Below are positions 2,096 to 56,567 of a stretch of DNA of 64,000 bases, in pieces. How positions within the stretch are numbered: position 1 is the first letter of the stretch; every line of letters begins with the position of its first letter. Origin of the DNA: an uncultured bacterium (GTDB lineage: Bacteria; Patescibacteriota; Minisyncoccia; Phycocordibacterales; GWA1-40-21); contig CAILDB010000003.1 of NCBI GenBank assembly GCA_903832855.1, positions 15,398 to 79,397 on the forward strand, read 5' to 3'. A program made the translations under genes and the position numbers. The notes beneath the pieces were generated by a model. It was not told the DNA's origin and searched no databases. It saw only the letters and a list, made by a program, of their open reading frames with translations.

Positions 2096-4186
2096 TCAAA
2101 CTTTTTTCTTGAAGAAAGTTTGCGTGGGCTTTTTTTTCTTGTCCACAGCTTTGGCTTTCTTTTCTATAATTATTTCAATTTGAGCGATTTCATCTCGAAG
2201 AAGTGCTGCTGTCTCAAAATCAAGAATTTTTACAGCCTCGGTCATCTGTTTCTGTTTTTCTTTAATTAGAGTTTTGAGCTTATTTCCGTAAATACCGATG
2301 TCAATCTGCATCAATTCTGAGACAGCCTTCTCATGTTCAGTATTCATTTGATCGGTAATATCTTTAATTTTCTTTATAATAGTTTTTGGAGTTATGCCGT
2401 GTTTTGTATTGTAAGCGGTCTGAATTGCTCTTCTTCTATTTGTTTCTGAGATCGCTCTCGTAATTGAGCCGGTAATGTTGTCTGCATAAAGGACAACTTT
2501 TCCTTTCACATTTCTCGCTGCCCTACCGATAGTCTGAATCAATGATGTCTCCGAACGCAAAAACCCTTCTTTGTCGGCATCAAGAATTCCAATAAATTCA
2601 ACCTCCGGCAAGTCCAAACCTTCACGAAGTAAGTTCACACCGACAATACAATCAAACTTCCCTCTTCTAAAATCAGAGAGAATTCCAATTCTATCTATCG
2701 TTTTGATATCGCTGTGCAAATATTCTGCTTTCACACCTTTTTCTTTTAGAAATACGCTCAAATCTTCCGCCATCTTTTTTGTAAGAGTTGTCGCAATTAC
2801 ACGACCGCCGCCTTTTACAACTCTTTCCGTTTCTTCAATGAAATCAAAAACCTGTCCTTTGTAACCGGACTCCTTGCTTTCCGCAATTTTCCTAATCTCA
2901 ACCTCCGGATCAATAAGCCCAGTGGGACGAATTACTTGCTCAACAATATTTTCTGAATTCGCTTTTTCATAATCTCCCGGAGTCGCAGTAGTAAAAATTG
3001 CTTGACCAATTTTATTTTCAAATTCGTCAAATTTCAAAGGTCTGTTGTCCATTGCGCTTGGTAATCTAAAACCATATTCCACAAGTGTTTTTTTTCTTGA
3101 TTTATCACCCTCAAACATTCCTCTGATTTGCGGTATCGTAACATGCGATTCATCTATAATAGTGAGGAAATCTGCCGTTCCATCGGCTTTATGCGGAAAA
3201 TATGAGAGAAGCGTGCTTGGCGCTTCTCCAGCAAGCTGACCAGAAAAATATCTGGAATAATTTTCAATTCCATTACAATAGCCAACTTCACGGATAAGAG
3301 CTAAATCATAATTTGTCCTTCTTTTTAATCTTTCCGCTTCAAGATTTTTTCCATCTTTTTTTAATTCCGCCAATCTTTTTTCCAAATCAATTTTAATTTC
3401 TTTTATTGCCCTCGCCTGTTGTTCCTTACCTGTAATAAAATGCTTGGCAGGAAAAACAAAAATGTCTTTTAGATCTTCTTCAATAATTCTATTTGTGACT
3501 GAATCTATTTTTGCAACTTTAGAAACAAAATCTCCATCAAAAGAAATTTTGTAAATAACTTTTTCGTTTACCGGCATTATTTCCACGGCATTTCCGACTG
3601 CACGAAAGTCTCCCGGACTTAAATCTGCGTTTGTCCTTTCAAAATGAATGTTTACCAGCTTTTTTATTATTTCCTGCCTGCTAGATTTTTCTCCTTTTGA
3701 AATTTTAATATTTACACTTAAATATTCTTCCGGATTTCCAAGATTGTAAATACAGGAAACGGATGCGACAATAATCACATCCTTTCTCGTCAAAAGTGCC
3801 TGTGTAGAAGCGTGACGAAGCCTATCAATTTCCTCATTTATCATTGCCTCCTTTTCAATGTAAGTATCAGTCACCGGCATATAGGCCTCTGGCTGATAAT
3901 AATCATAATAGGAAACAAAATAATGCACAGCGTTATTTGGAAAAAATTCTTTGTATTCTTGAGCAAGTTGAGCCGCGAGAGTTTTGTTGTGTGCAATTAC
4001 AAGAGTTGGTTTATCGTACTGAGCAATCACATTTGCCATTGTAAAAGTTTTTCCTGAACCCGTCACACCAAAAAGAGTTTGCTTCATCGCACCATTTTCT
4101 AGCCCAGAAACAAGCGACTTTATCGCCTCCGGCTGATCCCCAGCTGGTTTCCAATCTGATTTTATTTGAAAATTATGTTGTGACAT
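2096..4186 (-). CDS. uvrB: Excinuclease ABC subunit B
   Basis: 696 aa. GVTGSGKTFTMA Walker A and the conserved UvrB helicase and UvrC-interaction C-terminal coiled coil. Arrangement is uvrA-[two-component system]-uvrB. Confidence 0.95.
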   Translation of the reverse strand: MSQHNFQIKSDWKPAGDQPEAIKSLVSGLENGAMKQTLFGVTGSGKTFTMANVIAQYDKPTLVIAHNKTLAAQLAQEYKEFFPNNAVHYFVSYYDYYQPEAYMPVTDTYIEKEAMINEEIDRLRHASTQALLTRKDVIIVASVSCIYNLGNPEEYLSVNIKISKGEKSSRQEIIKKLVNIHFERTNADLSPGDFRAVGNAVEIMPVNEKVIYKISFDGDFVSKVAKIDSVTNRIIEEDLKDIFVFPAKHFITGKEQQARAIKEIKIDLEKRLAELKKDGKNLEAERLKRRTNYDLALIREVGYCNGIENYSRYFSGQLAGEAPSTLLSYFPHKADGTADFLTIIDESHVTIPQIRGMFEGDKSRKKTLVEYGFRLPSAMDNRPLKFDEFENKIGQAIFTTATPGDYEKANSENIVEQVIRPTGLIDPEVEIRKIAESKESGYKGQVFDFIEETERVVKGGGRVIATTLTKKMAEDLSVFLKEKGVKAEYLHSDIKTIDRIGILSDFRRGKFDCIVGVNLLREGLDLPEVEFIGILDADKEGFLRSETSLIQTIGRAARNVKGKVVLYADNITGSITRAISETNRRRAIQTAYNTKHGITPKTIIKKIKDITDQMNTEHEKAVSELMQIDIGIYGNKLKTLIKEKQKQMTEAVKILDFETAALLRDEIAQIEIIIEKKAKAVDKKKKPTQTFFKKKV

Positions 4187-7160: not shown

Positions 7161-7654
7161 TATTTCACTCCCAAAAGTTCTATCTCAAAATAAAGAGTTG
7201 AATTTGCAGGAATTGGACCGTTTGAACTTGCACCATATCCTAGATTTGGTGGAATAACGAGAATTCTTTTTCCGCCAACTTTCATACCAGTCACACCAAG
7301 GTCCCAACCTTCAATAACTTGCCCCGCACCAAGTGTAAATGTAAATGGTGTTCCTCTATCAATCGAACTATCAAACTTTGTGCCATCTGTAAGTACCCCG
7401 ACATAATTTACAGTAATACTTTTACCAGCTACTGCTTCTGCACCTGTTCCAACAACTTCATCTTTAATTCCTAATTGTGTATTATTCACTTGATTTAAAT
7501 TATTAGTACCTGTTGCATTTTGATCTACCTCTGCGACTTGCTGTGTGTCAGCTGTTCCCAGAAACTGATCAAAAATTCCACCGACCCATCCGACAAAAAC
7601 TAAGACTACAATAACTGCGATTGTAATTGCTATACCTTTTGTTGTTTTATTCAT
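7160..7654 (-). CDS. FKBP-type peptidyl-prolyl cis-trans isomerase, membrane-anchored
   Basis: 164 aa. N-terminal TM, then an FKBP domain (GDxVxVxYxGxLxDGxxFDSS...FxLGxGxVIxGWDxGVxGMKVGGKRxLxIPP). Confidence 0.8.
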   Translation of the reverse strand: MNKTTKGIAITIAVIVVLVFVGWVGGIFDQFLGTADTQQVAEVDQNATGTNNLNQVNNTQLGIKDEVVGTGAEAVAGKSITVNYVGVLTDGTKFDSSIDRGTPFTFTLGAGQVIEGWDLGVTGMKVGGKRILVIPPNLGYGASSNGPIPANSTLYFEIELLGVK

Positions 7655-10039: not shown

Positions 10040-11300
10040 ACTTTCTTGATGGAATTCTGGTCAATGTCGGTGTCTGAGAGACAATCTGACTAGGAAAGTG
10101 AAATAAAGTCGCAAGTTCTTCGGTGTTTAATATGAATGATTTTGATGGACCAAGATTCCTGTATGGTATTTGAAAAAATGAACGCAATTTGTAAGCATTG
10201 AACATATCCATTCTTAATTCCTCAGCATCACCCTGATATATGGATTTGAAAGGCCAAGGAAATATTCTTATTAAATCTTTTTGCCAATCATCAGTATCAG
10301 TTACATTTAATGGAACAAAACCATTAAGATTTGCTGAATTAAATGACTTCAAACACGAAATTGCAGAACTAATATAGTTTGGCTGAAAACTTTCCTTTTT
10401 AGCAAAATAAATAGTCCTAATTTTACAATCAAACGGCATTTTGTTTGCACTTCTCTCCACTGCAGCGATGGTCTCTGTCTGTACTTTTGTTGGACTTGGA
10501 ATTTTAGAAAATTTATCATCCTTTTCTATCTTCATAAAGTCAGGAATTGTCTCCATTTTTAATTTTTTGACAACATCCTTTATATCCTTCTTCCAATCTT
10601 TCTTACCCATCCATCTGCCATTTAAAAATCTTTTTTCTTCCTGATGTTTCTGTATGAGGATTTGTATCCAAGAATTTTCACCCTTTTTCATTGAGGCGAG
10701 AAATTCAAACAAAGAATTCAACGGATCTATTTTGTATTCGTCCTTCTGATCTGCATCAAGTCCATAATCAATGTATGTTTTTATTGGATAAGGGTCCGGT
10801 TTAGCCAGCCCATATTGTATCCCAAAATATGAGTATGTATCCGTATTATATTCAAACTTTTCTGTATAGTCTGCGACATCATTTATTTCTATGTTTGGAT
10901 ATTGAGCGTATAATTGTGCTTCAACCAAATTTTTGTATTTCTCCCAGGTCCAAATATAAATATGTATTTCTCCCTGATTTGACACAAACTCAAAAGAAAA
11001 CCATGGCTTAACTTTACCATCAAGAAACGCCTCAGTATAGGCCTTTGGTCCGTTCTGTGCGAGAAAGGAAAAAAATGTTTCCATTGAGACAGGTGACTTA
11101 AATATTTCCTTTGGGAGTTTTATTTCAAGTAAAACTTTTTTCATCTTATTCATAAATTTGAGCTGTGCATGTCGTAACCTCAGCATCAAGTAAACAAGAA
11201 TAAACATAATAGGCAGAGCAACAGGAAGAATAATTATTAAATAGTGAAAGACCACTGGAAACAGTCCTGTAGAAATTGATGATAAAAATTGGTTAAACAT
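10011..11300 (-). CDS. Hypothetical membrane-anchored protein
   Basis: 429 aa. N-terminal TM, no recognisable motif. AT-rich like the native genes. Confidence 0.5.
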   Translation of the reverse strand: MFNQFLSSISTGLFPVVFHYLIIILPVALPIMFILVYLMLRLRHAQLKFMNKMKKVLLEIKLPKEIFKSPVSMETFFSFLAQNGPKAYTEAFLDGKVKPWFSFEFVSNQGEIHIYIWTWEKYKNLVEAQLYAQYPNIEINDVADYTEKFEYNTDTYSYFGIQYGLAKPDPYPIKTYIDYGLDADQKDEYKIDPLNSLFEFLASMKKGENSWIQILIQKHQEEKRFLNGRWMGKKDWKKDIKDVVKKLKMETIPDFMKIEKDDKFSKIPSPTKVQTETIAAVERSANKMPFDCKIRTIYFAKKESFQPNYISSAISCLKSFNSANLNGFVPLNVTDTDDWQKDLIRIFPWPFKSIYQGDAEELRMDMFNAYKLRSFFQIPYRNLGPSKSFILNTEELATLFHFPSQIVSQTPTLTRIPSRKFEAPSNLPI

Positions 11301-11342
11301 TACTACTATTATAATTCATAATAAAAGAAAAGGCAAAATCAA

Positions 11343-11377
11343 AAAGCCCGCGAATGAGAATTCGCGGGCTTTTTGAT
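11343..11377. terminator. Bidirectional intrinsic terminator hairpin
   Basis: AAAAAGCCCGCGAATgagaATTCGCGGGCTTTTT. Confidence 0.55.
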
Positions 11378-11384
11378 TTCTGTC

Positions 11385-41983: not shown

Positions 41984-43264
41984 TTAGGACTTTTTTCCGA
42001 TGTATTCTGCACCCCCCATATATTTTCTCAAAACCTCCGGAATCTTAATACTTCCGTCTTCTTGCTGATTATTTTCTACAATCTGAATAAGAATTCTCGG
42101 AGTTGCAAGCGCAGTATTATTGAGTGAGTGAGCAAATTTCATTTTTCCATCATCGTCTTTGTATCTGGTATTTAATCTTCTGCATTGGAAATCATGGAAA
42201 TACGAGCAGGAATGCGTCTCACCATATTTATTTTGAGATGGACGCCAAACCTCCACATCATACTTTTTCACCTGACCAAGCCCGAGATCTCCTCCACAAT
42301 TTGCAACCACATGATAAGGCAAATTTAAAGCTTGCAAAAGTTCTTCAACGTTCGAAAGAAGCTCTTCGTGAAGTGCAACGCTTTTTTCATGGCTTGCTTC
42401 ACACCATATTACTTGCTCAAATTTATAAAATTCGTGAAGTCTGTAAAGCCCCTTGACATCCTTGCTATAACTGCCCGCCTCCCTTCTGAAACACGGCGAA
42501 AATGCGAGTTTTTTGATAGGTAAATCTTTCTTGTCAAGTACCTTGTCAGCATTGTAGCTCATAGTCGCCACTTCGGCAGTTCCGGCAAGATAATCATTGT
42601 CTTGAGTCTTGTACAAATCATCCTCCCCCTGTGGCAAATATCCAGTTCCCAGAAGTGTTTCTCTACGCACGAGTGATGGCACAAACAAAAGCTTGTATTC
42701 ACTTTTCTTTTCTCTGAAAAAGTCCATCACAAATTGCCAAAGCGCAAATTCCATAAGTGCACCTTCGTTTTTCAAAAAGTATCCACGGAATCCGGCAACC
42801 TTTGCGCCAATTTCAAAATCCGCCAAATCCAATTTCTCCATCAGTTCAATATGATCTTTTGGTCTGTAAGTAAAATTTGGCTTCTCACCCCAAGCACGCA
42901 CTTCCACATTATCCGCGTCGCTATCGCCTTCTGGCACAGACATATCTGGAATATTTGGAACCTGAAGCATAAGAGCTTGCCAAACTTTCATAACTTCCTT
43001 CATTTTTTCTTCTTCTTTTTGAAGCTCATCTTTCAGAAGCTTCATATCTTCAAGTAGATTTTTCTTTTCTAGGGCGTCCTTCATAGAAGGTAATCTCTTG
43101 CTTGCTTCATTTTGTTTTGCTCTTTTTTCTTCAACCAAAAGTGTAAGAGCTTTTCTCTCATCATCGGCTTTAATAAGCGCCTCCACATCAAACTTCAAAT
43201 GCTTTTTCTTTGCACCCTCCGCAATCAACTCTTTATTTTCTCGTATAAATTTTATATCTAACAT
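41984..43264 (-). CDS. serS: Seryl-tRNA synthetase
   Basis: 426 aa. N-terminal coiled-coil arm and class II core. Confidence 0.95.
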   Translation of the reverse strand: MLDIKFIRENKELIAEGAKKKHLKFDVEALIKADDERKALTLLVEEKRAKQNEASKRLPSMKDALEKKNLLEDMKLLKDELQKEEEKMKEVMKVWQALMLQVPNIPDMSVPEGDSDADNVEVRAWGEKPNFTYRPKDHIELMEKLDLADFEIGAKVAGFRGYFLKNEGALMEFALWQFVMDFFREKKSEYKLLFVPSLVRRETLLGTGYLPQGEDDLYKTQDNDYLAGTAEVATMSYNADKVLDKKDLPIKKLAFSPCFRREAGSYSKDVKGLYRLHEFYKFEQVIWCEASHEKSVALHEELLSNVEELLQALNLPYHVVANCGGDLGLGQVKKYDVEVWRPSQNKYGETHSCSYFHDFQCRRLNTRYKDDDGKMKFAHSLNNTALATPRILIQIVENNQQEDGSIKIPEVLRKYMGGAEYIGKKS

Positions 43265-43315
43265 AATTCATATATTATCAAGAAAATACAAAATAGACAA
43301 CTCTTTTGCACATAT

Positions 43316-43344
43316 TTGACTTTTGATAAAATACCGAATAATAT
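43316..43344 (+). promoter_or_regulatory. Candidate sigma-70-type promoter (TTGACT-17-TAATAT) driving the 16S-like element
   Basis: TTGACT at 43316-43321, 17-nt spacer, TAATAT at 43339-43344. Confidence 0.4.
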
Positions 43345-43350
43345 AACATT

Positions 43351-43558
43351 AGGCACAAACTGGGAAATAGATGAGCAATACGCGAGTTATCTTCGGTAGG
43401 CATCAGCTACGGCCGAAAAGGAGCTCTCGTCCCATCAGCTTGTTGGCGAGGTAATGGCTCACCAAGGCTCACGGGTAGCTAGCGCGAGAGGGTCGCTGGC
43501 CATGCAGTTTGCGCTTAGCTCCGTTCCAATGTAATGTTGGGCGGAGCGCCTTTTTTTT
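43351..43558 (+). ncRNA. Putative ~210-nt small RNA whose body mimics 16S rRNA (E. coli positions ~180-310, helices h8-h12), with its own intrinsic terminator
   Basis: CCCATCAGCTTGTTGGCGAGGTAATGGCTCACCAAGGCTCACGGGTAGCTAGCGCGAGAGGGTCGCTGGCCAT compares with the bacterial 16S consensus GATTAGCTAGTTGGTGAGGTAATGGCTCACCAAGGCGACGATCCGTAGCTGGTCTGAGAGGATGATCAGCC. Ends in GCGCT..CCG/CGGAGCGCC followed by TTTTTTTT (43509-43558). Intergenic between serS and dprA. Confidence 0.35.
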
Positions 43559-43600
43559 ATTTCTACTTTTCATAAAAATAATATATAATCATTTGCAGAT

Positions 43601-44476
43601 ATGTCATTAAAAGATTTTGAAGTTTATACAATTAAGAAGGCAGAGATGCCCGAATTGCTTCAGGAAATTCCGGATTGCCCGGAAAAACTTTTTGTTCAGG
43701 GTAAGATGCCGGGACCAGAAACCAAATTGCTTTGTGTTGTTGGCTCTCGCAAATTCACACCATACGGAAAAGAGGCCTGCGAGAAGCTTATCTCTGGTCT
43801 TCGCGGATATGACATTACTATTGTTTCTGGACTTGCAATGGGAATTGACGGTATTGCACATCAAGCAGCACTTTCTGCAGGACTAAAAACTATCGCAGTT
43901 CCGGGTTCAGGACTTTCAGAAAAAGTTTTATCACCACGAACAAATATTCCTATTGCAAATAAAATTTTGGAATCAGGTGGTGCGATGCTTTCCGAATTTG
44001 AAATGGATTTCATCGCCACACCATATAGCTTTCCACAAAGAAACAGAATTATGGCGGGGCTTTCTCACGCCACACTTGTCATAGAAGCGGAAATAAAATC
44101 TGGCACACTCATCACTTCCAAATACGCGACAGAATACAACAGAGATGTCTTTACTGTGCCAGGCTCAATTTTTTCAAAAAATTCTGATGGCCCAAACATG
44201 CTTATCAGACTTGGTGCGACACCCATTCGCACAAGTTCAGATATTTTGGAAGCCCTTGGCTTCAAAACAGATGAGGAACCGCAAAATCTTACGCTGAAAT
44301 ATTCTGATTGCTCACCCGAAGAATTACTTGTAGTTGAAATTCTGCAAAATCCAATGTCAAAAGACGACCTCGTCAGAAAAATGAAAATGCCAATTTCACA
44401 AGCGAGTGCTGTAATTTCAATAATGGAAATAAAAGGATTGCTCGAAGAAAGTATGGGAGAAATGCGTTTGATTTAA
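43601..44476 (+). CDS. dprA: DNA processing protein DprA/Smf
   Basis: 291 aa. Rossmann-like DprA core (VVGSRKFTPYGKEACEKLISGLRGYDITIVSGLAMGIDGIAHQAAL) and C-terminal winged helix. Confidence 0.85.
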   Translation: MSLKDFEVYTIKKAEMPELLQEIPDCPEKLFVQGKMPGPETKLLCVVGSRKFTPYGKEACEKLISGLRGYDITIVSGLAMGIDGIAHQAALSAGLKTIAVPGSGLSEKVLSPRTNIPIANKILESGGAMLSEFEMDFIATPYSFPQRNRIMAGLSHATLVIEAEIKSGTLITSKYATEYNRDVFTVPGSIFSKNSDGPNMLIRLGATPIRTSSDILEALGFKTDEEPQNLTLKYSDCSPEELLVVEILQNPMSKDDLVRKMKMPISQASAVISIMEIKGLLEESMGEMRLI

Positions 44477-44481
44477 ATTTC

Positions 44482-44509
44482 TTGACTTTATTTTCATAAG
44501 TAGTATAGT
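44482..44509 (+). promoter_or_regulatory. Canonical sigma-70-type promoter (TTGACT-16-TATAGT)
   Basis: TTGACT at 44482-44487 and TATAGT at 44504-44509. AAAAAGGAGAAG SD before the ATG at 44552. Confidence 0.5.
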
Positions 44510-44551
44510 TTTCAGGTACTGTTCTAGGAAACCGAGAAAAAAGGAGAAGTT

Positions 44552-44815
44552 ATGTCTAGGCGTCATGGATATGGTGAAAAGCCGAAAGTCAAAGGACGGG
44601 AGAACATGTCCAAAAGAGAAATAACGAGGTACGAGAACAAGGTCGTCTTGGTCGCTGGACAGGAAGTCATGTATGCGACCGAAAAGAAGACCGGGACCGT
44701 GGCTTCTGTGGAAGCAACCGCGTGCAATCTCGCGCTTGAAAAAAGCGGGTTTGTCGCCGTCTCGTTCGATGACGGACAACTGTGGATCGAACACGATAAA
44801 CTTGCGGCGATCTGA
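44552..44815 (+). CDS. Hypothetical 87-aa protein (GC-rich stand-alone cassette)
   Basis: MSRRHGYGEKPKVKGRENMSKREITRYENKVVLVAGQEVMYATEKKTGTVASVEATACNLALEKSGFVAVSFDDGQLWIEHDKLAAI. Own promoter and terminator. Confidence 0.5.
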   Translation: MSRRHGYGEKPKVKGRENMSKREITRYENKVVLVAGQEVMYATEKKTGTVASVEATACNLALEKSGFVAVSFDDGQLWIEHDKLAAI

Positions 44816-44835
44816 AATAGCGATCGACCAAACCC

Positions 44836-44866
44836 CCGGCGCATGTAATTGCGCCGGTTTTTTTTG
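44836..44866 (+). terminator. Rho-independent terminator
   Basis: CCGGCGCatgtaattGCGCCGG followed by TTTTTTTT. Confidence 0.55.
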
Positions 44867-44922
44867 TAAAAAATAAAAAAAAATTTGCAACAAATGATAT
44901 TTGTGTGTAATACTATACATTA

Positions 44923-47100
44923 ATGAAATTATTAATTGTAGAATCGCCTTCAAAAGCGAAAACAATAGAAAAATATTTGGAAGGAGAATTTGTCGTCAAA
45001 GCGAGCGTAGGACACATTCGCGACCTTCCAAAAAGTAACAAACAAGCCATCGATATTCCCGGTGGTTTTATTCCCCATTATGAAATTTCCCCTGGGAAAG
45101 AAAAAGTTGTAGCTGAAATCCGTTCCCTTTCCAAAAAAGCTGATGAGGTATTGCTCGCAACCGACCCTGACCGAGAAGGAGAAGCTATTGCATGGCACAT
45201 CAAAGAGGCAGTGGGACTGAAAAATCCAAAAAGAATTTGTTTCTATGAAATTACGAAAGATGCGGTCAAAGAAGCGATTAAAAATCCTCGCGAAATAGAT
45301 GACAATTTGAGAAAAGCCCAAGAAGCGCGACGCGTGCTGGATAGAATTGTCGGATATGATTTGTCCGGTATGATTTGGAAAAAGGTGCGATATGGACTTT
45401 CTGCTGGACGCGTGCAATCCCCTGCCCTCCGTATAATAATGGAAAGAGAAAGAGAAATCCGCGCGTTTATTCCGGAAAAATTTTGGGTAATTACCGCAGA
45501 CACTGAAGCAAACAAAAAAGATTTGATTTCTTTTGTCTGTGAAAAAGAACCTCGTGATATTAAAGAAGTTGAAAAGATTCTTGAGGTTGGCAAAAAAGAA
45601 AAATGGACGATAAAAAGTGTAAATGAAACAGAAGCCAAAAGAAGTCCAAAAGCGCCATTTACAACTTCTACTTTGCAACAAACTGCAAGTACACGACTCG
45701 GTTTTGCTCCATCAAAGACGATGGGTGTGGCACAGAAGCTCTACGAGGCCGGTCTTATCACATACATGAGGACAGACAGCACAAATATGAGTGTGGTTGC
45801 ACTTGACCAAATTTCCGCAGTTGTAAACAAAGAATACGGTGCAGATTTTGCAAAAAGAAATGTTTACGTAACAAAAAGCAAAAATGCTCAGGAGGCTCAC
45901 GAAGCTGTAAGACCAACAGATATGAGTAAAAAGGTTGCAGGATTTACAGATGAACAAAAAAGACTTTATCGTTTGATTTGGCAGAGAACAATCGCTTCAC
46001 AAATGACAGATGCAAAAATTTTGAGAACAAAAATAACCGCACAAGTCGGTGATGGCACACAAACTCCGGATTTTTCTACAAATGGTTCGCGAACACTTTT
46101 TGAAGGCTGGCTCAAAGCTGACCCAGAAGCCAGAGGCGAAGATGTAGAACTTCCTGTAGTCAAAGATGGCGATGAAGTTAAATTACTTGAATTAAACAGC
46201 GAAGAAAAATCCACCGAACCACCAAACAGATACACCGAAGCTGGCCTCATTAAGGAACTAGAAAAAAGAGGTATTGGAAGACCTTCCACATATGCATCAA
46301 TTATGAAAACTCTTGATGAAAGAGACTACGTCAGAAAAGAAGGTAAGACGTTAATACCGACAGACACAGGAGATGTCGTAAGCACATTTCTTGAAAATAA
46401 TTTCGCAAACTATATCAGTGATACCTTTACTGCAGAAATGGAAGATGAGCTCGATGATATTGCAACTGGAAAAAGAGAATATTTAAAAACTCTTAAAGAT
46501 TTTTACGGACCTTTTGCAAAAGAAGTAAAAGAAAAAAATAAAATTGAAAAAGTAAATAATCTCGGCGAAGCGGATGAAAAACACAAATGTCCTGTCTGCG
46601 GTGGGCCGATGGTAATCAAACTTTCCAAAACTGGAAGATTTATGAGTTGTGCAAAATTCCCAGATTGTGTGGGAGCGAGAAAAATAGACGGCGAAGAAAT
46701 GGCTGGGCCAAAGGAAACCGGCGAAATGTGTCCGGAATGTAAAAAAGGTAAACTCGTAGAAAGAGAAGGCCGTTTTGGCAAATTTATTTCTTGTTCAAAT
46801 TATCCAAAATGTAAATTTATCAAAAAAGATGCCGAGCTCGAAAGACAAAATAGCACCGGTGTCGCCTGCCCAATTTGCAAAACAGGAATGATGACCGAGA
46901 GACGAGGAAGATTTGGTAACTTTTACAGTTGTTCAAATTATCCAAAATGCAAAAATATTACAAAAGCAAAACCAACCGGCAACATCTGCCCTACTTGTGG
47001 TGCCCTGATGATGGCCGGAACAAAAACAATTCCGGAAAGATGCTCAAACAACAAATGTCCAAACAACAGACCGGATAAATTGGAGAAAAAACAATCTTAG
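44923..47100 (+). CDS. topA: DNA topoisomerase I
   Basis: 725 aa. TOPRIM (LLIVESPSKAKTI...DPDREGE), catalytic Tyr region and three C-terminal CxxC zinc ribbons. Confidence 0.95.
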   Translation: MKLLIVESPSKAKTIEKYLEGEFVVKASVGHIRDLPKSNKQAIDIPGGFIPHYEISPGKEKVVAEIRSLSKKADEVLLATDPDREGEAIAWHIKEAVGLKNPKRICFYEITKDAVKEAIKNPREIDDNLRKAQEARRVLDRIVGYDLSGMIWKKVRYGLSAGRVQSPALRIIMEREREIRAFIPEKFWVITADTEANKKDLISFVCEKEPRDIKEVEKILEVGKKEKWTIKSVNETEAKRSPKAPFTTSTLQQTASTRLGFAPSKTMGVAQKLYEAGLITYMRTDSTNMSVVALDQISAVVNKEYGADFAKRNVYVTKSKNAQEAHEAVRPTDMSKKVAGFTDEQKRLYRLIWQRTIASQMTDAKILRTKITAQVGDGTQTPDFSTNGSRTLFEGWLKADPEARGEDVELPVVKDGDEVKLLELNSEEKSTEPPNRYTEAGLIKELEKRGIGRPSTYASIMKTLDERDYVRKEGKTLIPTDTGDVVSTFLENNFANYISDTFTAEMEDELDDIATGKREYLKTLKDFYGPFAKEVKEKNKIEKVNNLGEADEKHKCPVCGGPMVIKLSKTGRFMSCAKFPDCVGARKIDGEEMAGPKETGEMCPECKKGKLVEREGRFGKFISCSNYPKCKFIKKDAELERQNSTGVACPICKTGMMTERRGRFGNFYSCSNYPKCKNITKAKPTGNICPTCGALMMAGTKTIPERCSNNKCPNNRPDKLEKKQS

Positions 47101-47107
47101 TTGATTT

Positions 47108-48637
47108 TTGCCACCAAATCTATACTATATAGATATGGCCACCATAAAAGAAATAACCGACTTGATGGATCTACCATCAAAAGAAAATGTAGACCTCGTA
47201 ACAAAGGCCTATAATTTTGCTGAGAAAGCACACGAGGGACAGAAGAGATTTTCTGGTGAACCTTACTTTATCCATGTGTATGAGACTGCCAAAATTCTTG
47301 CGGAGATGAAAATGGATGCCGCCACTATTTCAGCTGGGCTTTTACACGACTCCATAGAAGATGGCGTCGCCACAGAAGAATGTATCAAGACAGAATTTGG
47401 TGATGAAATTTTATTTCTTGTAAATGGTGTAACAAAACTCGGAAAAGTTAAATACAGAGGTGCTGAAAGACACATTGAAAGTTTAAAAAAGTTTTTGGTT
47501 GCAATCGCACAGGATCTCAGGGTTTTGATTATTAAACTTGCGGACCGTCTTCACAATATGCGAACGCTTGAGTTTGTCCGTGAGGATAAACAGCAAAGAA
47601 TCGCACTCGAGACATTACAGATTTATGCTCCGCTCGCCTACCGACTTGGTATTAGAAAAGTATCTAGGGAACTTGAAGACTTAGCCTTCAAAAATTTAAA
47701 TCCGAAAGAATATGAGGAAACCCTTAAATTTGTAAAAGCAAAGAAAGAACAGGATTTACCAAAGCTGGAAAAATTTGTGAAATCCGTGAAAAAAGCTTTG
47801 GCATTAGAGGGATTCACTACAATAAAAACCGACTATAGGTTAAAAGGTATTTATAGTTTACACAGAAAGCTTGGAGAAAAAGGTCAAGACATAGATAAAG
47901 TTTATGACATTCTTGCCCTTAGAGTTTGCGTAGAAACAGTGGCGGACTGTTATGCCGTTCTAGGCATTATTCATGGCATCTGGAGGCCATTACCCGGAAG
48001 AATCAAGGATTACATCGCCTTTCCAAAGCCAAACGGCTACCAAAGCTTGCACACCACTATTTTTACTGGTGACGGCTCCATAGTAGAAGTGCAAATCAGG
48101 ACAAATGAAATGCATCAGAAAGCTGAGTACGGTATTGCCTCCCACATTGTTTACAAGGAAAATGGAAGTACCAAAAAAGCTGAAACTGTAAATTGGTTCA
48201 AATATTTTTTGCCAAAGTTTATCAACTTTGCAAAAACAAACGAGGAAAAAGATATTCCGGGGTGGGTGGCAGAACTTGCCGAATCAACCCGCGACAATAA
48301 TGGCGAAGATAAGGAAGACTACTTGGAGGATTTAAAGGCAGACGTTTTTTCACACAGAATTTTTATTTTTACTCCAAAAGGAGAAGTGGTAGACCTACCA
48401 GTAGGCTCAAGTATCCTTGATTACGCATATATGATCCACTCAGATATCGGCAACCATACCAATAGTGCTAAAATAAATGGCAAGATTGCGGCAATTAAAA
48501 CCGAATTAAAAAATGGTGATATTGTGGAAATCATTACAAAAGAAAGTAGTAAACCAAGTACAAAATGGATAGAAATGGTAAAGACTTCAATGGCAAAAAG
48601 ACACATTAAGGAATTTTTGGAGAAAGAGAAAAAGTGA
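47108..48637 (+). CDS. Short bifunctional (p)ppGpp synthetase/hydrolase Rel/SpoT homologue (HD + synthetase + TGS, no ACT or C-terminal regulatory region)
   Basis: 509 aa. HD motif (HD...LHDSIEDG), synthetase core and TGS domain near the C-terminus. The start may be the ATG at 47135 (MATIKEI). Confidence 0.8.
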   Translation: MPPNLYYIDMATIKEITDLMDLPSKENVDLVTKAYNFAEKAHEGQKRFSGEPYFIHVYETAKILAEMKMDAATISAGLLHDSIEDGVATEECIKTEFGDEILFLVNGVTKLGKVKYRGAERHIESLKKFLVAIAQDLRVLIIKLADRLHNMRTLEFVREDKQQRIALETLQIYAPLAYRLGIRKVSRELEDLAFKNLNPKEYEETLKFVKAKKEQDLPKLEKFVKSVKKALALEGFTTIKTDYRLKGIYSLHRKLGEKGQDIDKVYDILALRVCVETVADCYAVLGIIHGIWRPLPGRIKDYIAFPKPNGYQSLHTTIFTGDGSIVEVQIRTNEMHQKAEYGIASHIVYKENGSTKKAETVNWFKYFLPKFINFAKTNEEKDIPGWVAELAESTRDNNGEDKEDYLEDLKADVFSHRIFIFTPKGEVVDLPVGSSILDYAYMIHSDIGNHTNSAKINGKIAAIKTELKNGDIVEIITKESSKPSTKWIEMVKTSMAKRHIKEFLEKEKK

Positions 48638-48638
48638 A

Positions 48639-49616
48639 CTAAATAGAAAAATTACTTACAGAATACAAATCATCATCTGCGGATTTTTTATCATCTGCCG
48701 ATCTATCATCCACAGGTGCTTCGGCGGGATTAATTGACAAACCTTCAATATGTTTCTCTAGCATTTCATTACCATTTTTCTTTTCGCCTTTTTGTCTTTC
48801 CACAACTTCAAGAATTGCACGCAAATCCTCATTTGAAAAATAATCTATTGTAATCTTTCCACCAATTTCTTTTTGCTCTATTTGAACTCTGGTACCAAAG
48901 GATTCTGTGAGCTTACCTTCAATTTCCATTATCACAGGGTCAAACATTCTCTCTTTCTTTCTGGCTCTTTCAAAAGCGATTTTTCTGGCAACAAGCTCAG
49001 CCTCTCTGACAGTCATTTTCTTATAAATAATTTCTCGGAACACTGTTTCCTGCTCTTCTTTCCTGTCAGCAAGCATAAGAAGGGGTCTGGTATGACCTTC
49101 GGAAATTTTACCTGCAGAAAGTGCCTCAAGCATATGTTCCGGCAAATCAAGAATTCTTAAACTGTTTGAAACATATTCTCTACTTTTACCGATTTTTTGT
49201 GCAACTTGAATGTGTTTAAATCCAAATTCATCTGTAAGTTTTTTAAATGCCTTTGCCCTATCCACAGCATTCAAATCTTCTCTTTGTAAATTTTCAATAA
49301 TTGCAAGTTCAAGTTTCATCAAATCGCTTTCATCAGAAGAACGAATGACCACCGGCACTTGAGCAATCCCTGCGAGCTTGGAAGCGCGCAATCTTCTCTC
49401 ACCGGAAATAAGCTCGTACTCCACAGCAAGTCCACCCTCCTCGGTTTGAATTTCTTTTCTCGTCACAACAAGAGGCTGTAGCACACCATACTGTTTGATG
49501 GAGTCCGCAAGATCTCGCAGTCGTGCTTCATCAAACTCCTTCCTCGGCTGAAAAGGATTTGGATTTACTTTTCCCGTATCTACCCAAAAAATTGAATCGC
49601 TATAAAATTGTGTCAT
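48639..49616 (-). CDS. parB: ParB/Spo0J-like partition protein (no adjacent parA)
   Basis: 325 aa. ParB box LQPLVV...GERRLRA, HTH, and a C-terminal acidic tail. Confidence 0.8.
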   Translation of the reverse strand: MTQFYSDSIFWVDTGKVNPNPFQPRKEFDEARLRDLADSIKQYGVLQPLVVTRKEIQTEEGGLAVEYELISGERRLRASKLAGIAQVPVVIRSSDESDLMKLELAIIENLQREDLNAVDRAKAFKKLTDEFGFKHIQVAQKIGKSREYVSNSLRILDLPEHMLEALSAGKISEGHTRPLLMLADRKEEQETVFREIIYKKMTVREAELVARKIAFERARKKERMFDPVIMEIEGKLTESFGTRVQIEQKEIGGKITIDYFSNEDLRAILEVVERQKGEKKNGNEMLEKHIEGLSINPAEAPVDDRSADDKKSADDDLYSVSNFSI

Positions 49617-53252: not shown

Positions 53253-53634
53253 GTATTGCCCTTGCGCCTATAAGCCGAATTCTGTCCACTCGTTTTTACA
53301 CGAGATGTACGATTATTTGTCTGGGCCAAATGTTGCCACTTGGCTCGTGCGACAACTCCTCTTGCGAGGCACGTGTCTTGCTCTCAGGTAAGGATTTAGC
53401 CGTTGCATTTTTGCCTTTCGACAAAACTATTCCCGAAGGAACCCTAGCCTTTCGGCATCGGCGTTTCTGTTCGCACCTCTTAGATTTCTCTATGCGGGCG
53501 TTACCCGCTACCCTTGTTCGCGGAATTTTTCGGCTCTGTCTCAGAGCCAAAAAATTCCGCGAGCCGAGAGTTCGGACTTTCCTCCAAACATCACCGAAGT
53601 GATGTTCAGCAATCGTCCAGCGCAATGGCAAAAA
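53253..53634 (-). ncRNA. rnpB: RNase P RNA, bacterial type
   Basis: Minus strand contains GGAGGAAAGTCCGAACTC (P4 5' strand), AAGGGTAGCGGGTAACGCCCGC, AACAGAAACGCCGATG and ACAGAATTCGGCTTAT (P4 3' strand). P1 pairs TTGCCATTGCGCTGG with AGGCGCAAGGGCAA. Both ORF-track ORFs here (53240..53602 + and 53296..53655 -) are spurious. Confidence 0.8.
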
Positions 53635-56195: not shown

Positions 56196-56296
56196 GGACT
56201 GCCAGACATTCGTGTCTAGGCAGTCCCTTTTTTTGTAAAAAATTTGTTTTACAAAATACAAAACAGCCCGCCTGAGGCGGGCTGTTTTGTATTTTA
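56196..56296. terminator. Two tandem intrinsic terminator hairpins (bidirectional)
   Basis: GGGACTGCCagacattcgtgtctaGGCAGTCCC followed by TTTTTTTG, then AACAGCCCGCCtgaGGCGGGCTGTT followed by TTGTATTTT. Confidence 0.55.
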
Positions 56297-56303
56297 CTTT
56301 TTC

Positions 56304-56567
56304 TTAACCCTTTATTGTCCCCAAAATAAGATTTATTATTCCCAATACAGAAAACATTATGGCCATACCTACAAGACCCCATATCATACTACTCTTGCCA
56401 TTTTTCCTACCTTCTTCACTATCCGCTTTCCAAAGAAATTGTAATACACCATAAATAAAATAAACTGTCGCTAGACCAAACAGTACCCAAAGAATAGGCT
56501 CAATAATTTGAGTATTTATATTCTTCAAAAGTTGGTCAAAACTAATTCCTACAGTAGCAAAATTCAT
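56304..56567 (-). CDS. VirB2/TrbC-type T4SS pilin-like small membrane protein, paralogue 1 (no obvious signal peptide)
   Basis: 87 aa. Two hydrophobic helices separated by the charged loop KADSEEGRKNGK. Aligns with its neighbours: IYFIYGVLQFLWKADSEEGRKNGKSSMIWGLVGMAIMFSVLG. Confidence 0.5.
   Translation of the reverse strand: MNFATVGISFDQLLKNINTQIIEPILWVLFGLATVYFIYGVLQFLWKADSEEGRKNGKSSMIWGLVGMAIMFSVLGIINLILGTIKG

What the first reader, a model, noticed from the sequence alone, without database searches (positions are those of the whole stretch)
43316..43558. Promoter-to-terminator unit whose transcript would mimic 16S rRNA helices h8-h12
Between serS and dprA, a TTGACT-17-TAATAT promoter is followed about 200 nt later by a GC hairpin plus T8 terminator. 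The intervening sequence is GC-rich and aligns with the 16S rRNA 5' domain: ...AAAAGGAGCTCTCGTCCCATCAGCTTGTTGGCGAGGTAATGGCTCACCAAGGC is near-identical to the 16S consensus. The following helix is diverged but still pairs (AGCG-cgagagggt-CGCT, versus 16S GGTC-tgagaggatga-TCAG). A processed pseudogene would not keep the helix while changing its sequence. So this looks like a maintained structural mimic. It may be a decoy or autoregulatory binding site for a 5'-domain r-protein such as S20, S17 or S16, or a small RNA derived from rDNA.
Basis: partly seen in the sequence, partly recalled or inferred. Interest (0 to 1): 0.55.

Follow-up and report, generated by a model that had tools for sequence, protein, structure and literature searches.

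The report
Stand-alone miniature 16S rRNA subdomain gene
A Patescibacteria genome carries a species-specific, apparently self-contained small-RNA gene that is a trimmed copy of one folding unit of 16S ribosomal RNA (helices 7, 11 and 12), and the same trimmed unit turns up unannotated in several Streptomyces phages, which suggests an undescribed kind of ribosomal-RNA decoy.

Summary
Window 43371-43503 (+) matches the bacterial SSU rRNA model (52.6 bits, E 2.6e-14). It follows promoter-like hexamers and precedes a strong hairpin plus U8 terminator. The helix labels need correcting: it covers model positions 106-311 (h7, h11, h12), and h8-h10 are the part that is missing.

The unit is a roughly 300-bp insertion specific to this lineage. 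The serS<->dprA spacer is 38-60 bp in the closest relative (93% DprA identity), and no copy lies in 80 other Paceibacterota loci. It is therefore not conserved in its own clade.

The same architecture recurs elsewhere. It has identical model boundaries, h8-h10 replaced by a short cap, and a closing helix. It occurs in Streptomyces phages Omar and Stella and in two IMG/VR contigs. Across the five sequences, 14 of 36 pairs show compensatory changes. Shorter units, with h11 inside a closing stem, occur in another Paceibacterota contig, lambdoid prophages, Jedunavirus phages and a Shewanella phage. None is annotated or has its own Rfam family.

Best reading (about 0.5): a trans-acting mini-rRNA-domain RNA, probably a decoy for an h11 binder such as uS17. 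Main rival (about 0.3): an inert rDNA-derived insertion. The organism's own 16S could not be retrieved.

The parts
43265..43298 (+). Ancestral serS-dprA spacer remnant (old dprA promoter region); aligns with the 38-60 bp spacer of relatives
   Evidence: Alignment with L083, L003, L005 and L012. Relatives run ...AAATAAACAAC-AATG straight into dprA.
43299..43606 (+). Lineage-specific insertion of about 300 bp. It replaces 'AATG' of relatives and supplies a new dprA start (ATG TCA).
   Evidence: the spacer is 38 bp in L083 (93% DprA identity). There is no second copy in the window or in the relatives' loci. Imperfect direct repeats TCTTTTGCACATAT (43302-15) and TCATTTGCAGATAT (43589-602) flank it.
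43316..43344 (+). Promoter-like site TTGACT-17-TAATAT. An alternative is TTTGCA (43305-10)-16-TAAAAT (43327-32) with a TG extension.
   Evidence: Consensus scan, 9 of 12 matches each. This is a consensus match only; transcription is not shown.
43350..43362 (+). 5' strand of the extra closing stem (UAGGCACAAACUG), non-16S sequence
   Evidence: Inverted repeat I1, MFE fold. Duplex -16.1 kcal/mol, reached by 10 of 5000 shuffles.
43371..43503 (+). Miniature 16S 5'-subdomain: 3-bp closing helix (43371-73 with 43501-03), h7 (43380-97 with 43412-30) with a short apex and possible h10 remnant (43398-43411), h11 (43431-75), h12 (43478-43500)
   Evidence: Rfam SSU_rRNA_bacteria model 106-311, 52.6 bits, E 2.6e-14. 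A covariance model built from the four phage copies alone gives 61 bits over its full length. The MFE reproduces these helices.
43505..43517 (+). 3' strand of the extra closing stem (CAGUUUGCGCUUA)
43517..43558 (+). Intrinsic-terminator-like hairpin (-17.5 kcal/mol) followed by GCC and U8
43587..43603 (+). Re-created dprA promoter -10 (TATAAT, 43587-92) and new dprA start codon (43601). The -10 to ATG distance is similar to that in relatives.
   Evidence: Direct reading of the sequence and comparison with relatives. This is inference.

Best explanation
The unit is an independently transcribed small RNA gene of roughly 170-210 nt. It entered this lineage after the split from its closest sampled relative.

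Its RNA folds into a miniature copy of one autonomous folding unit of the 16S 5' domain. That unit is the junction of h7, h11 and h12. The peripheral helices h8-h9(-h10) are trimmed away, an added 13-bp closing stem clamps the domain, and an intrinsic terminator ends the transcript.

It most likely acts in trans as a molecular mimic, or decoy, of that part of 16S rRNA. The target would be a factor that recognises h11 and h7. The best candidate is ribosomal protein uS17.

The same design occurs at the head of the right-arm operon of Streptomyces phages. Simpler units, with h11 in a closed junction, occur in other phages and prophages. The design therefore seems to have been captured repeatedly from host-type 16S genes and then retained, mostly by mobile elements.

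**Shown:** sequence and structure likeness, the boundaries, the insertion status, the existence of analogous units, and covariation among them.

**Inferred:** transcription, action in trans, the protein partner, and the route of acquisition.
For: - **Domain-exact boundaries.** The 16S likeness begins and ends at the paired positions 106-108 and 309-311. The internal deletion removes whole helices.
- **Independent copies with the same design.** Stella (78.6 bits) and Omar (68.4 bits) match the same model span, 106-311, with 95-97 model positions deleted. Two further IMG/VR members were found. The h7 caps are UACG, UUCG, GAAA and CUUCGG.
- **Covariation.** RNAalifold on the five sequences recovers the closing helix, h7, h11 and h12. 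It predicts 36 pairs, 14 with compensatory changes. In the pair count, 91.7% of cells are paired against 33-46% in slid controls, and 0 of 500 shuffles reach any measure.
- **Extra closing stem.** It is made of non-16S sequence and is unlikely by chance. Comparable closing stems occur in L093, the lambdoid unit (fold z -4.5), ZCEC13 and Y11.
- **Transcription signals.** The unit has its own promoter-like site and a strong terminator.
- **Real CPR-type 16S genes keep h8-h10.** This holds for L105, L086, L087, L108 and L128, so the trimming is a derived feature.
- **Time for decay.** The flanking genes are 86-87% identical in DNA to the nearest relative. There has been time for a neutral insert to decay, yet nearly all helices are intact.
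- **Partner.** S17 interacts with h11, while S20 binds h6, h8, h9 and h10, which are absent here (PMC4604426).
Against: - There is no conservation in the organism's own clade. The unit is absent from the 93% relative and from 80 related loci around dprA. The analogous L093 unit is likewise absent from its relatives at 74-90% RNase R identity.
- The organism's own 16S was not retrievable. How far the copy has diverged from its source is unknown.
- Part of the covariation among the five sequences may have been inherited from different source 16S genes, rather than arising after capture.
- Only five sequences were available, and the structure was predicted on the same alignment.
- The MFE z-score of the whole unit is modest, at -2.2.
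- Promoter-like matches are common in this AT-rich spacer.
- There are no expression data and no binding data.
- The window copy keeps a 29-nt h7 apex rather than a clean tetraloop, and its h11-h12 linker is 2 nt short. It may therefore be an independent derivative and not a homologue of the phage units.
Confidence: 0.5

Rival explanations
1. An inert rDNA-derived insertion. A piece of a 16S gene, the organism's own or from imported DNA, was captured by illegitimate recombination in a spacer that tolerates insertions. An internal deletion followed. The promoter-like and terminator-like flanks are incidental.
For: - The unit is lineage-specific and single-copy.
- The same spacer carries other unrelated insertions in relatives L004, L006, L007 and L009.
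- A second lineage-specific, GC-rich insertion lies just downstream of dprA.
- Truncated 16S pieces joined to unrelated sequence exist in other contigs (L109, L112).
- The h11 copies resemble host-lineage 16S.
Against: - The boundaries fall exactly on a paired helix, and the deletion removes whole helices.
- A significant closing stem is formed from non-16S flanks.
- The same architecture occurs in four phage sequences with covariation.
- The helices remain intact despite 13% DNA divergence of the flanking genes from the nearest relative.
Confidence: 0.3
2. A cis-acting leader or attenuator of dprA. The RNA is the 5' untranslated region of dprA, and the terminator is a regulated attenuator.
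For: It has the same orientation as dprA. The terminator lies 43 nt upstream of the dprA start.
Against: - Relatives express dprA from a promoter about 10 nt upstream of the start codon, with no leader.
- A TATAAT box is re-created between the terminator and the new ATG.
- The phage and L093 units precede unrelated genes.
- No alternative anti-terminator pairing is evident in the fold.
Confidence: 0.07
3. A genuine piece of the ribosome. The organism's 16S gene lacks this subdomain, which is supplied in trans, giving a fragmented rRNA gene like those of some organelles.
For: - CPR 16S genes carry large insertions flanking this region (L128).
- The piece is a complete folding unit with its own promoter and terminator.
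- Organellar precedents exist (PMC3382252, PMC10948144; listed).
Against: - The nearest relative lacks the unit, so it would need an intact 16S.
- The copy lacks h8-h9, departs from the conserved GAGUAA motif (GAGCAA), and has a linker 2 nt short.
- The phage copies cannot be explained this way.
Confidence: 0.05
4. An antisense or serS-leader element read from the minus strand, or an assembly chimera.
For: - serS lies downstream on the minus strand.
- A minus-strand promoter-like site lies at 43607-43580.
Against: - No T-box or other family matches on either strand.
- The terminator works only on the plus strand.
- The structure is that of sense 16S.
- The sequence is identical in independent assemblies.
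Confidence: 0.03

Closest known systems
Ribosomal-protein autoregulatory mRNA leaders that mimic rRNA binding sites (for example the S8/spc, S15, S4, S7, L1, L10 and L20 leaders)
   Same: An RNA outside the ribosome copies the rRNA site of a ribosomal protein, and can therefore bind that protein.
   Different: - Those leaders are cis-acting parts of ribosomal-protein mRNAs and usually share only a small motif with rRNA.
- This unit stands alone between serS and dprA and ends at its own terminator.
- It copies a whole three-helix subdomain. The h11 stretch (about 40 nt) matches real bacterial 16S genes almost base for base.
- No ribosomal-protein gene is adjacent.
Unannotated mini-16S units of Streptomyces phages Omar (NC_054662.1, about 48633-48750, minus strand) and Stella (OP751154.1, about 45525-45633, minus strand), and of IMG/VR contigs L230 and L231. 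These were found here.
   Same: - Same SSU model span, 106-311.
- h8-h10 excised and h7 capped.
- Closing helix, h11 and h12 kept, with covariation.
   Different: - The phage units cap h7 with a clean tetraloop. They sit in a long non-coding, hairpin-rich region at the head of a phage operon.
- The window copy is chromosomal and keeps a 29-nt apex with a possible h10 remnant.
- The window copy has an extra 13-bp clamp and its own terminator.
- Its sequence is of CPR type, so common descent with the phage units is not shown.
Partial or orphan rRNA gene fragments (rRNA pseudogenes)
   Same: The sequence derives from a 16S gene and lies outside an rRNA operon.
   Different: The boundaries are domain-exact. 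Whole helices are excised. A clamp stem and transcription signals have been added.
Fragmented rRNA genes of organelles (Plasmodium and Toxoplasma mitochondria; PMC3382252, PMC10948144)
   Same: Short, separately transcribed RNAs corresponding to blocks of rRNA helices.
   Different: In organelles the pieces together make up the only rRNA. Here a normal 16S gene is expected, though this is unverified, and the nearest relative lacks the piece.
Protein-sequestering or mimic small RNAs (6S RNA, CsrB/RsmZ)
   Same: The proposed mode of action: a trans-acting RNA that imitates the natural nucleic-acid ligand of a protein.
   Different: There is no sequence or structural relationship to them. The partner here is unknown.

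Membership tests
Bacterial SSU rRNA gene (Rfam RF00177) | Score at or above the family gathering threshold | tested here: met
   52.6 bits against a gathering score of 50 in the local search. It was missed at gathering threshold on the whole window. In the whole-window E-value search the same spot was reported under the microsporidial SSU model, at 33.9 bits.
Bacterial SSU rRNA gene (Rfam RF00177) | Full-length molecule with all domains, about 1500 nt | tested here: not met
   Only model positions 106-311 are present, with h8-h10 missing. No other SSU piece is found in the 64 kb at E<=0.01.
Ribosomal-protein autoregulatory leader (rRNA mimic in cis) | Lies in the leader or intergenic region of a ribosomal-protein operon | tested here: not met
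   The flanking genes are serS and dprA. The unit ends at its own terminator.
Ribosomal-protein autoregulatory leader (rRNA mimic in cis) | Reproduces the rRNA binding site of the regulating protein | tested here: inconclusive
   h11 and h7 are reproduced, and S17 interacts with h11 (PMC4604426). Binding itself cannot be tested with these tools.
Mini-16S 5'-subdomain RNA (provisional group: Omar, Stella, L230, L231) | 16S likeness bounded by the 106-108/309-311 helix | tested here: met
   The same model span appears. The phage-only covariance model aligns over its full length (1-115) at 61 bits.
Mini-16S 5'-subdomain RNA (provisional group: Omar, Stella, L230, L231) | h8-h10 replaced by a short stable cap on h7 | tested here: inconclusive
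   The block is removed, but 29 nt remain (a UUCGG-containing stem plus a small hairpin) rather than a 4-nt loop. The span is 139 nt, against 109-118 nt in the phage units and 190-225 nt in real 16S genes.
Mini-16S 5'-subdomain RNA (provisional group: Omar, Stella, L230, L231) | Helices kept through compensatory changes | tested here: met
   14 of 36 pairs have double changes, and 91.7% of cells are paired. Caveats: only 5 sequences, and some variation may predate capture.
Mini-16S 5'-subdomain RNA (provisional group: Omar, Stella, L230, L231) | Carried by a phage or other mobile element | tested here: not met
   It is a chromosomal 300-bp insertion with no mobile-element genes next to it. Its lineage-specific status is compatible with horizontal acquisition but does not prove it.
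Fragmented rRNA gene piece | The main 16S gene of the same genome lacks this segment | not testable with these tools
T-box leader of serS | Match to the T-box model upstream of an aminoacyl-tRNA synthetase gene, on its strand | tested here: not met
   No T-box match appeared on either strand, including at E<=10 in the local search.
Independent transcription unit (sigma-70 promoter plus intrinsic terminator) | Consensus promoter and a GC hairpin with a U tract in the right order and strand | tested here: met
   These are consensus matches only; function is not shown.

The most novel reading that the evidence does not exclude
The unit belongs to an undescribed, repeatedly evolved class of trans-acting 'mini-rRNA-domain' RNAs. 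Phages, prophages and some reduced bacteria capture the h11-centred subdomain of host-type 16S rRNA. They trim it to a self-folding core and clamp it with a closing stem. They then express it to titrate uS17 or another early 30S assembly factor, and so manipulate ribosome biogenesis or a ribosome-linked defence.
Probability: 0.3. Interest if true: 0.8.

Novelty: new variant of a known kind. Interest (0 to 1): 0.62.

Why it matters
Mimicry of rRNA is so far known mainly from cis-acting leaders of ribosomal-protein operons. A free-standing gene that consists of a trimmed, self-folding 16S subdomain would add a new kind of rRNA decoy. That it recurs in phages of unrelated hosts strengthens the case.

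It would also point to the h11/uS17 step of 30S assembly as a target during infection or in reduced symbionts.

The phage copies sit in cultivable Streptomyces phages (Omar and Stella) and in E. coli prophages, which makes the idea directly testable.

If the unit instead proves inert, it still documents repeated capture of the same rRNA segment. It also warns against reading such fragments as 16S genes in metagenome bins.

Tried and rejected
- **Conservation by synteny.** 80 GTDB loci around dprA and the 93% relative all lack the unit.
- **Other copies in the window or in relatives.** None was found.
- **Metagenome scan for 'h11 plus T-run'.** It returned 48 hits. Nearly all were real CPR or DPANN 16S genes, whose GGAATTTTTTGCAATG motif supplies the T-run. 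Only L093 was analogous. The window species itself was not hit.
- **Test of whether L093's unit is conserved.** Relatives at 74-90% RNase R identity lack it. Some carry only a small basic-protein gene in that gap.
- **Search for the organism's own 16S.**
  - Walking off the left window end found UvrA, UvrC and Ddl but no rRNA.
  - The protein at the right window end is not on record.
- **The idea that CPR 16S naturally lack h8-h10.** This came from a covariance-model hit of 110 nt in L128. Reading the sequence shows that h7 5', h8 and h10 are all present around insertions, so the idea was rejected.
- **The phage-only covariance model.** It cannot separate mini units from real 16S by score. Only the length of the span separates them.
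- **Moraxella phage Mcat16 hit.** It is a long 16S-like stretch, probably contamination or a chimera.
- **Link between the unit and the neighbouring orphan ORF87.** ORF87 has no homologues anywhere.
- **Literature searches.** None found a description of such units.
- **A correction to my own notes.** An early note said the lambdoid h11 differs from its host's at 6 positions. That holds only for my recollection of E. coli K-12. It differs from Salmonella 16S at about 2 positions within the hairpin.

Full report
**What is in the window**

The spacer between serS (minus strand, 41984-43264) and dprA (plus strand, 43601-44476) is 336 bp long. Both genes were identified by Pfam hits on the called genes.

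The spacer contains a G+C-rich island, at 47-59% G+C against about 30% around it.

Rfam cmscan on the spacer places 43371-43503 (+) on the bacterial SSU rRNA model at 52.6 bits, E 2.6e-14. The match covers model positions 106-311.

- The alignment keeps the 3-bp helix that closes this subdomain, h7, h11 and h12.
- Within h11, a stretch of about 40 nt matches real bacterial 16S genes almost base for base.
- About 80 model positions, corresponding to h8-h10, are replaced by about 29 nt.
- The h11-h12 linker is 2 nt short.

The helices kept are h7, h11 and h12.

So is an overlapping alternative with a TG extension. Such matches are frequent in this AT-rich spacer.

Downstream lies a hairpin of -17.5 kcal/mol followed by U8.

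The minimum-free-energy fold reproduces the 16S-type helices. It also shows a 13-nt closing stem formed by non-16S flanks, 43350-62 pairing with 43505-17. That duplex, at -16.1 kcal/mol, is reached by only 10 of 5000 shuffles and by 2 of 1676 equally spaced positions in the window.

**Who owns it, and is it conserved**

DprA homologues identify the organism as a Patescibacteria member (Paceibacterota/Minisyncoccia).

The divergent serS/dprA arrangement is kept in the relatives whose spacers I read (L003-L007, L009, L012, L083). The 16S-like unit is not.

- In the closest relative (93% DprA identity, 86-87% DNA identity in both genes) the spacer is 38 bp.
- In L003, L005 and L012 the spacer is about 45-110 bp.
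- nhmmer and an h11-h12 profile find no copy in 80 GTDB loci.
- There is no second copy in the window.

The alignment defines an insertion of about 300 bp (43299-43606). It replaces 'AATG' and brings a new dprA start codon together with a TATAAT box at the ancestral distance. Short imperfect direct repeats flank it.

The stretch is identical in two independent assemblies, so it is not a chimera.

The same spacer holds other, unrelated small insertions in other relatives.

**Looking for relatives elsewhere**

A metagenome scan for 'h11 followed by a T-run' mostly hit genuine 16S genes. It did yield one analogous unit, L093, from another Paceibacterota organism (Vogelbacteria-like).

- In L093, h11 and h12 (SSU 237-308, 49.5 bits) are enclosed by a 7-bp closing stem and followed by a terminator-like hairpin.
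- The unit lies between smc and a convergent RNase R gene.
- It is again lineage-specific. Relatives at 74-90% RNase R identity lack it.

Scans of viral contigs and of isolated phage genomes were more informative.

Streptomyces phages Stella and Omar each carry a unit that matches the same SSU span, 106-311, at 78.6 and 68.4 bits. In both, 95-97 model positions (h8-h10) are deleted. A pattern that requires the shortened distance between GAGUAAC and h11 found two more members in IMG/VR, L230 and L231.

The h7 apex is capped differently in each:

| Sequence | h7 cap |
|---|---|
| Stella | UACG |
| L230 | UUCG |
| L231 | GAAA |
| Omar | CCUC-UUCG-GAGG |

In Omar and Stella the unit lies in an unannotated stretch 0.5-1 kb from the right genome end. 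It sits at the head of a leftward operon of small hypothetical genes.

RNAalifold on the window copy plus these four recovers the closing helix, h7, h11 and h12 without being told the structure. It predicts 36 pairs, 14 of them with compensatory changes. In the pair count, 91.7% of cells are paired against 33-46% when partners are slid. No shuffle out of 500 reaches any measure.

A covariance model built from the four phage copies alone aligns the window copy over its full length, at 61 bits. That model also matches real 16S genes by tolerating a 104-114-nt insert, so score alone does not prove membership. The span does distinguish them:

| Sequence | Span matched |
|---|---|
| Window copy | 139 nt |
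| Phage units | 109-118 nt |
| Real 16S genes | 190-225 nt |

Simpler units, with h11 alone plus one other hairpin inside a long closing stem, occur in three further settings:

- More than 80 enterobacterial lambdoid prophage contigs. The unit lies in the early-left operon, its fold z-score is -4.5, and it is full-length in 13 of 5426 E. coli genomes.
- Jedunavirus phages such as ZCEC13. These show a compensatory U-A to A-U swap and have their own terminator.
- Shewanella phage Y11.

None of these units is annotated as an RNA. For those scanned against Rfam (the window, L093, one lambdoid locus, Omar, Stella, ZCEC13 and Y11), no family matches except the SSU models themselves. Four literature searches found no description.

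The h11 copies resemble the 16S of their host lineages. For example, the lambdoid copy differs from Salmonella 16S at about two positions within the hairpin. This points to repeated, independent capture from host-type rRNA genes.

**Is the trimming simply how CPR 16S looks?**

No evidence supports that. The real CPR-type 16S genes recovered (L105, L086, L087, L108, L128) all keep h8-h10.

A misleading 110-nt model hit in L128 was resolved by reading the sequence. That gene has h7, h8 and h10, interrupted by an IVS-protein insert, an AT-rich insert and a LAGLIDADG intron.

L128 does show that the h12 stem sequence varies naturally.

**Interpretation**

Several features are hard to reconcile with a random, decaying rDNA fragment:

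- the domain-exact ends;
- the removal of whole peripheral helices;
- the added clamp;
- the unit's own transcription signals;
- the recurrence of the same design, with covariation, in phages.

I therefore favour a trans-acting RNA that presents a self-folding copy of the h7-h11-h12 junction (confidence about 0.5).

The likeliest ligand is uS17, which interacts with h11. bS20 is unlikely, because its helices (6, 8, 9, 10) are the ones removed (PMC4604426). The partner and the effect are inferences. Possible effects include titration of an assembly protein, interference with 30S biogenesis, or a decoy for a ribosome-directed factor.

Against a maintained function in this genome stands the absence of the unit from every sampled relative. 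It is either a recent acquisition or evolutionary noise. The inert-insertion rival keeps about 0.3.

Less likely rivals are a dprA leader (0.07), a true rRNA piece of a fragmented 16S gene (0.05), and minus-strand or artefact readings (0.03).

The key missing datum is the organism's own 16S gene, which the available scans could not reach.

**Verdict**

- The unit is best filed as a new variant of rRNA mimicry. It is a possible member, or a convergent analogue, of an undescribed group of miniature 16S-subdomain RNAs carried mostly by phages.

Noticed in passing
L226 550-667 (Streptomyces phage Omar NC_054662.1, about 48633-48750, minus strand); L229 609-717 (phage Stella OP751154.1, about 45525-45633, minus strand); L230 about 7383-7490; L231 about 692-800: Unannotated miniature 16S subdomains (SSU model 106-311, h8-h10 replaced by tetraloop caps) in Streptomyces phages and IMG/VR contigs. 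In Stella, an annotated ORF (gene 90) on the opposite strand overlaps the unit.
   Followed up: yes
L138-L224 (IMG/VR); L213 4001-4141 (E. coli M37H, NZ_CP092233.1 1573971-1574111): A conserved unit of about 100 nt in enterobacterial lambdoid prophages. A 15-bp closing stem encloses a 45-nt copy of 16S h11 plus a second hairpin. It lies in the early-left operon upstream of DUF2528, gam, recT and exo, and is unannotated. It is full-length in 13 of 5426 E. coli genomes.
   Followed up: partly
L228 about 1450-1660 (Escherichia phage ZCEC13 NC_071140.1; also Klebsiella phages SBP and SCNJ1-Y); L227 about 1485-1590 (Shewanella phage vB_SbaS_Y11): Further units with h11 inside a closed junction. ZCEC13 has a compensatory U-A to A-U swap in h11 and its own U12 terminator, and it overlaps a 32-aa 'hypothetical protein' call.
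   Followed up: partly
L093 265-486: A second Paceibacterota contig with a stand-alone h11-h12 copy (49.5 bits), a closing stem and a terminator-like hairpin, between smc and RNase R. It is absent from relatives, which instead carry only a small Lys/Pro-rich ORF there.
   Followed up: yes
L226 1717-1781 (phage Omar): A type II hammerhead ribozyme match (47.8 bits, gathering score 37) between two small phage genes, about 1 kb downstream of the mini-16S unit.
   Followed up: no
window 44480-44870: A second lineage-specific, G+C-rich, self-contained unit just downstream of dprA. It has a promoter-like site, a ribosome-binding site, an 87-aa ORF (44552-44815, +) and a terminator (CCCCCGGCGC...GCGCCGG-T8). 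The ORF has no homologue in 5.8 billion proteins and no Pfam or PHROG family. The automatic gene call in the source contig is a 167-aa ORF on the opposite strand.
   Followed up: partly
window 53255-53628 (-): RNase P RNA (class A) at 92.7 bits, just under the Rfam gathering score of 100, so it is missed at default thresholds.
   Followed up: no
L004, L006, L007, L009 about 2750-3000 (serS-dprA spacer of relatives): The same spacer carries other lineage-specific insertions of 100-370 bp with hairpins and short repeats. L004 and L009 share TTTTTAAyGAACGAAG...CACCCyGTG, and L007 has repeated TACGAAT. The spacer therefore seems to be a hot spot for small insertions.
   Followed up: no
L108 1923-3350 (-): An otherwise complete 16S gene (1291 bits) that lacks about 61 model positions covering h12-h14, including the universal 338 region. 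This is either a misassembly or a very unusual rRNA.
   Followed up: no
L128 680-3640: A CPR 16S gene interrupted by an IVS-protein (four-helix-bundle) insert, an AT-rich insert in h9, a LAGLIDADG-encoding insert in h13 and a group I intron (50.3 bits).
   Followed up: partly
L225 (Moraxella phage Mcat16 KR093640.1, about 3500-3900): The phage record contains a long stretch that reads like a genuine 16S 5' domain, continuing to the 338 region, in an unannotated part. This is probably contamination or a chimera rather than a mini unit.
   Followed up: no
window 11300-11378 (+) and 56257-56335 (-): Two weak matches to the Thr operon leader model (35-37 bits, gathering score 55), probably chance.
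   Followed up: no
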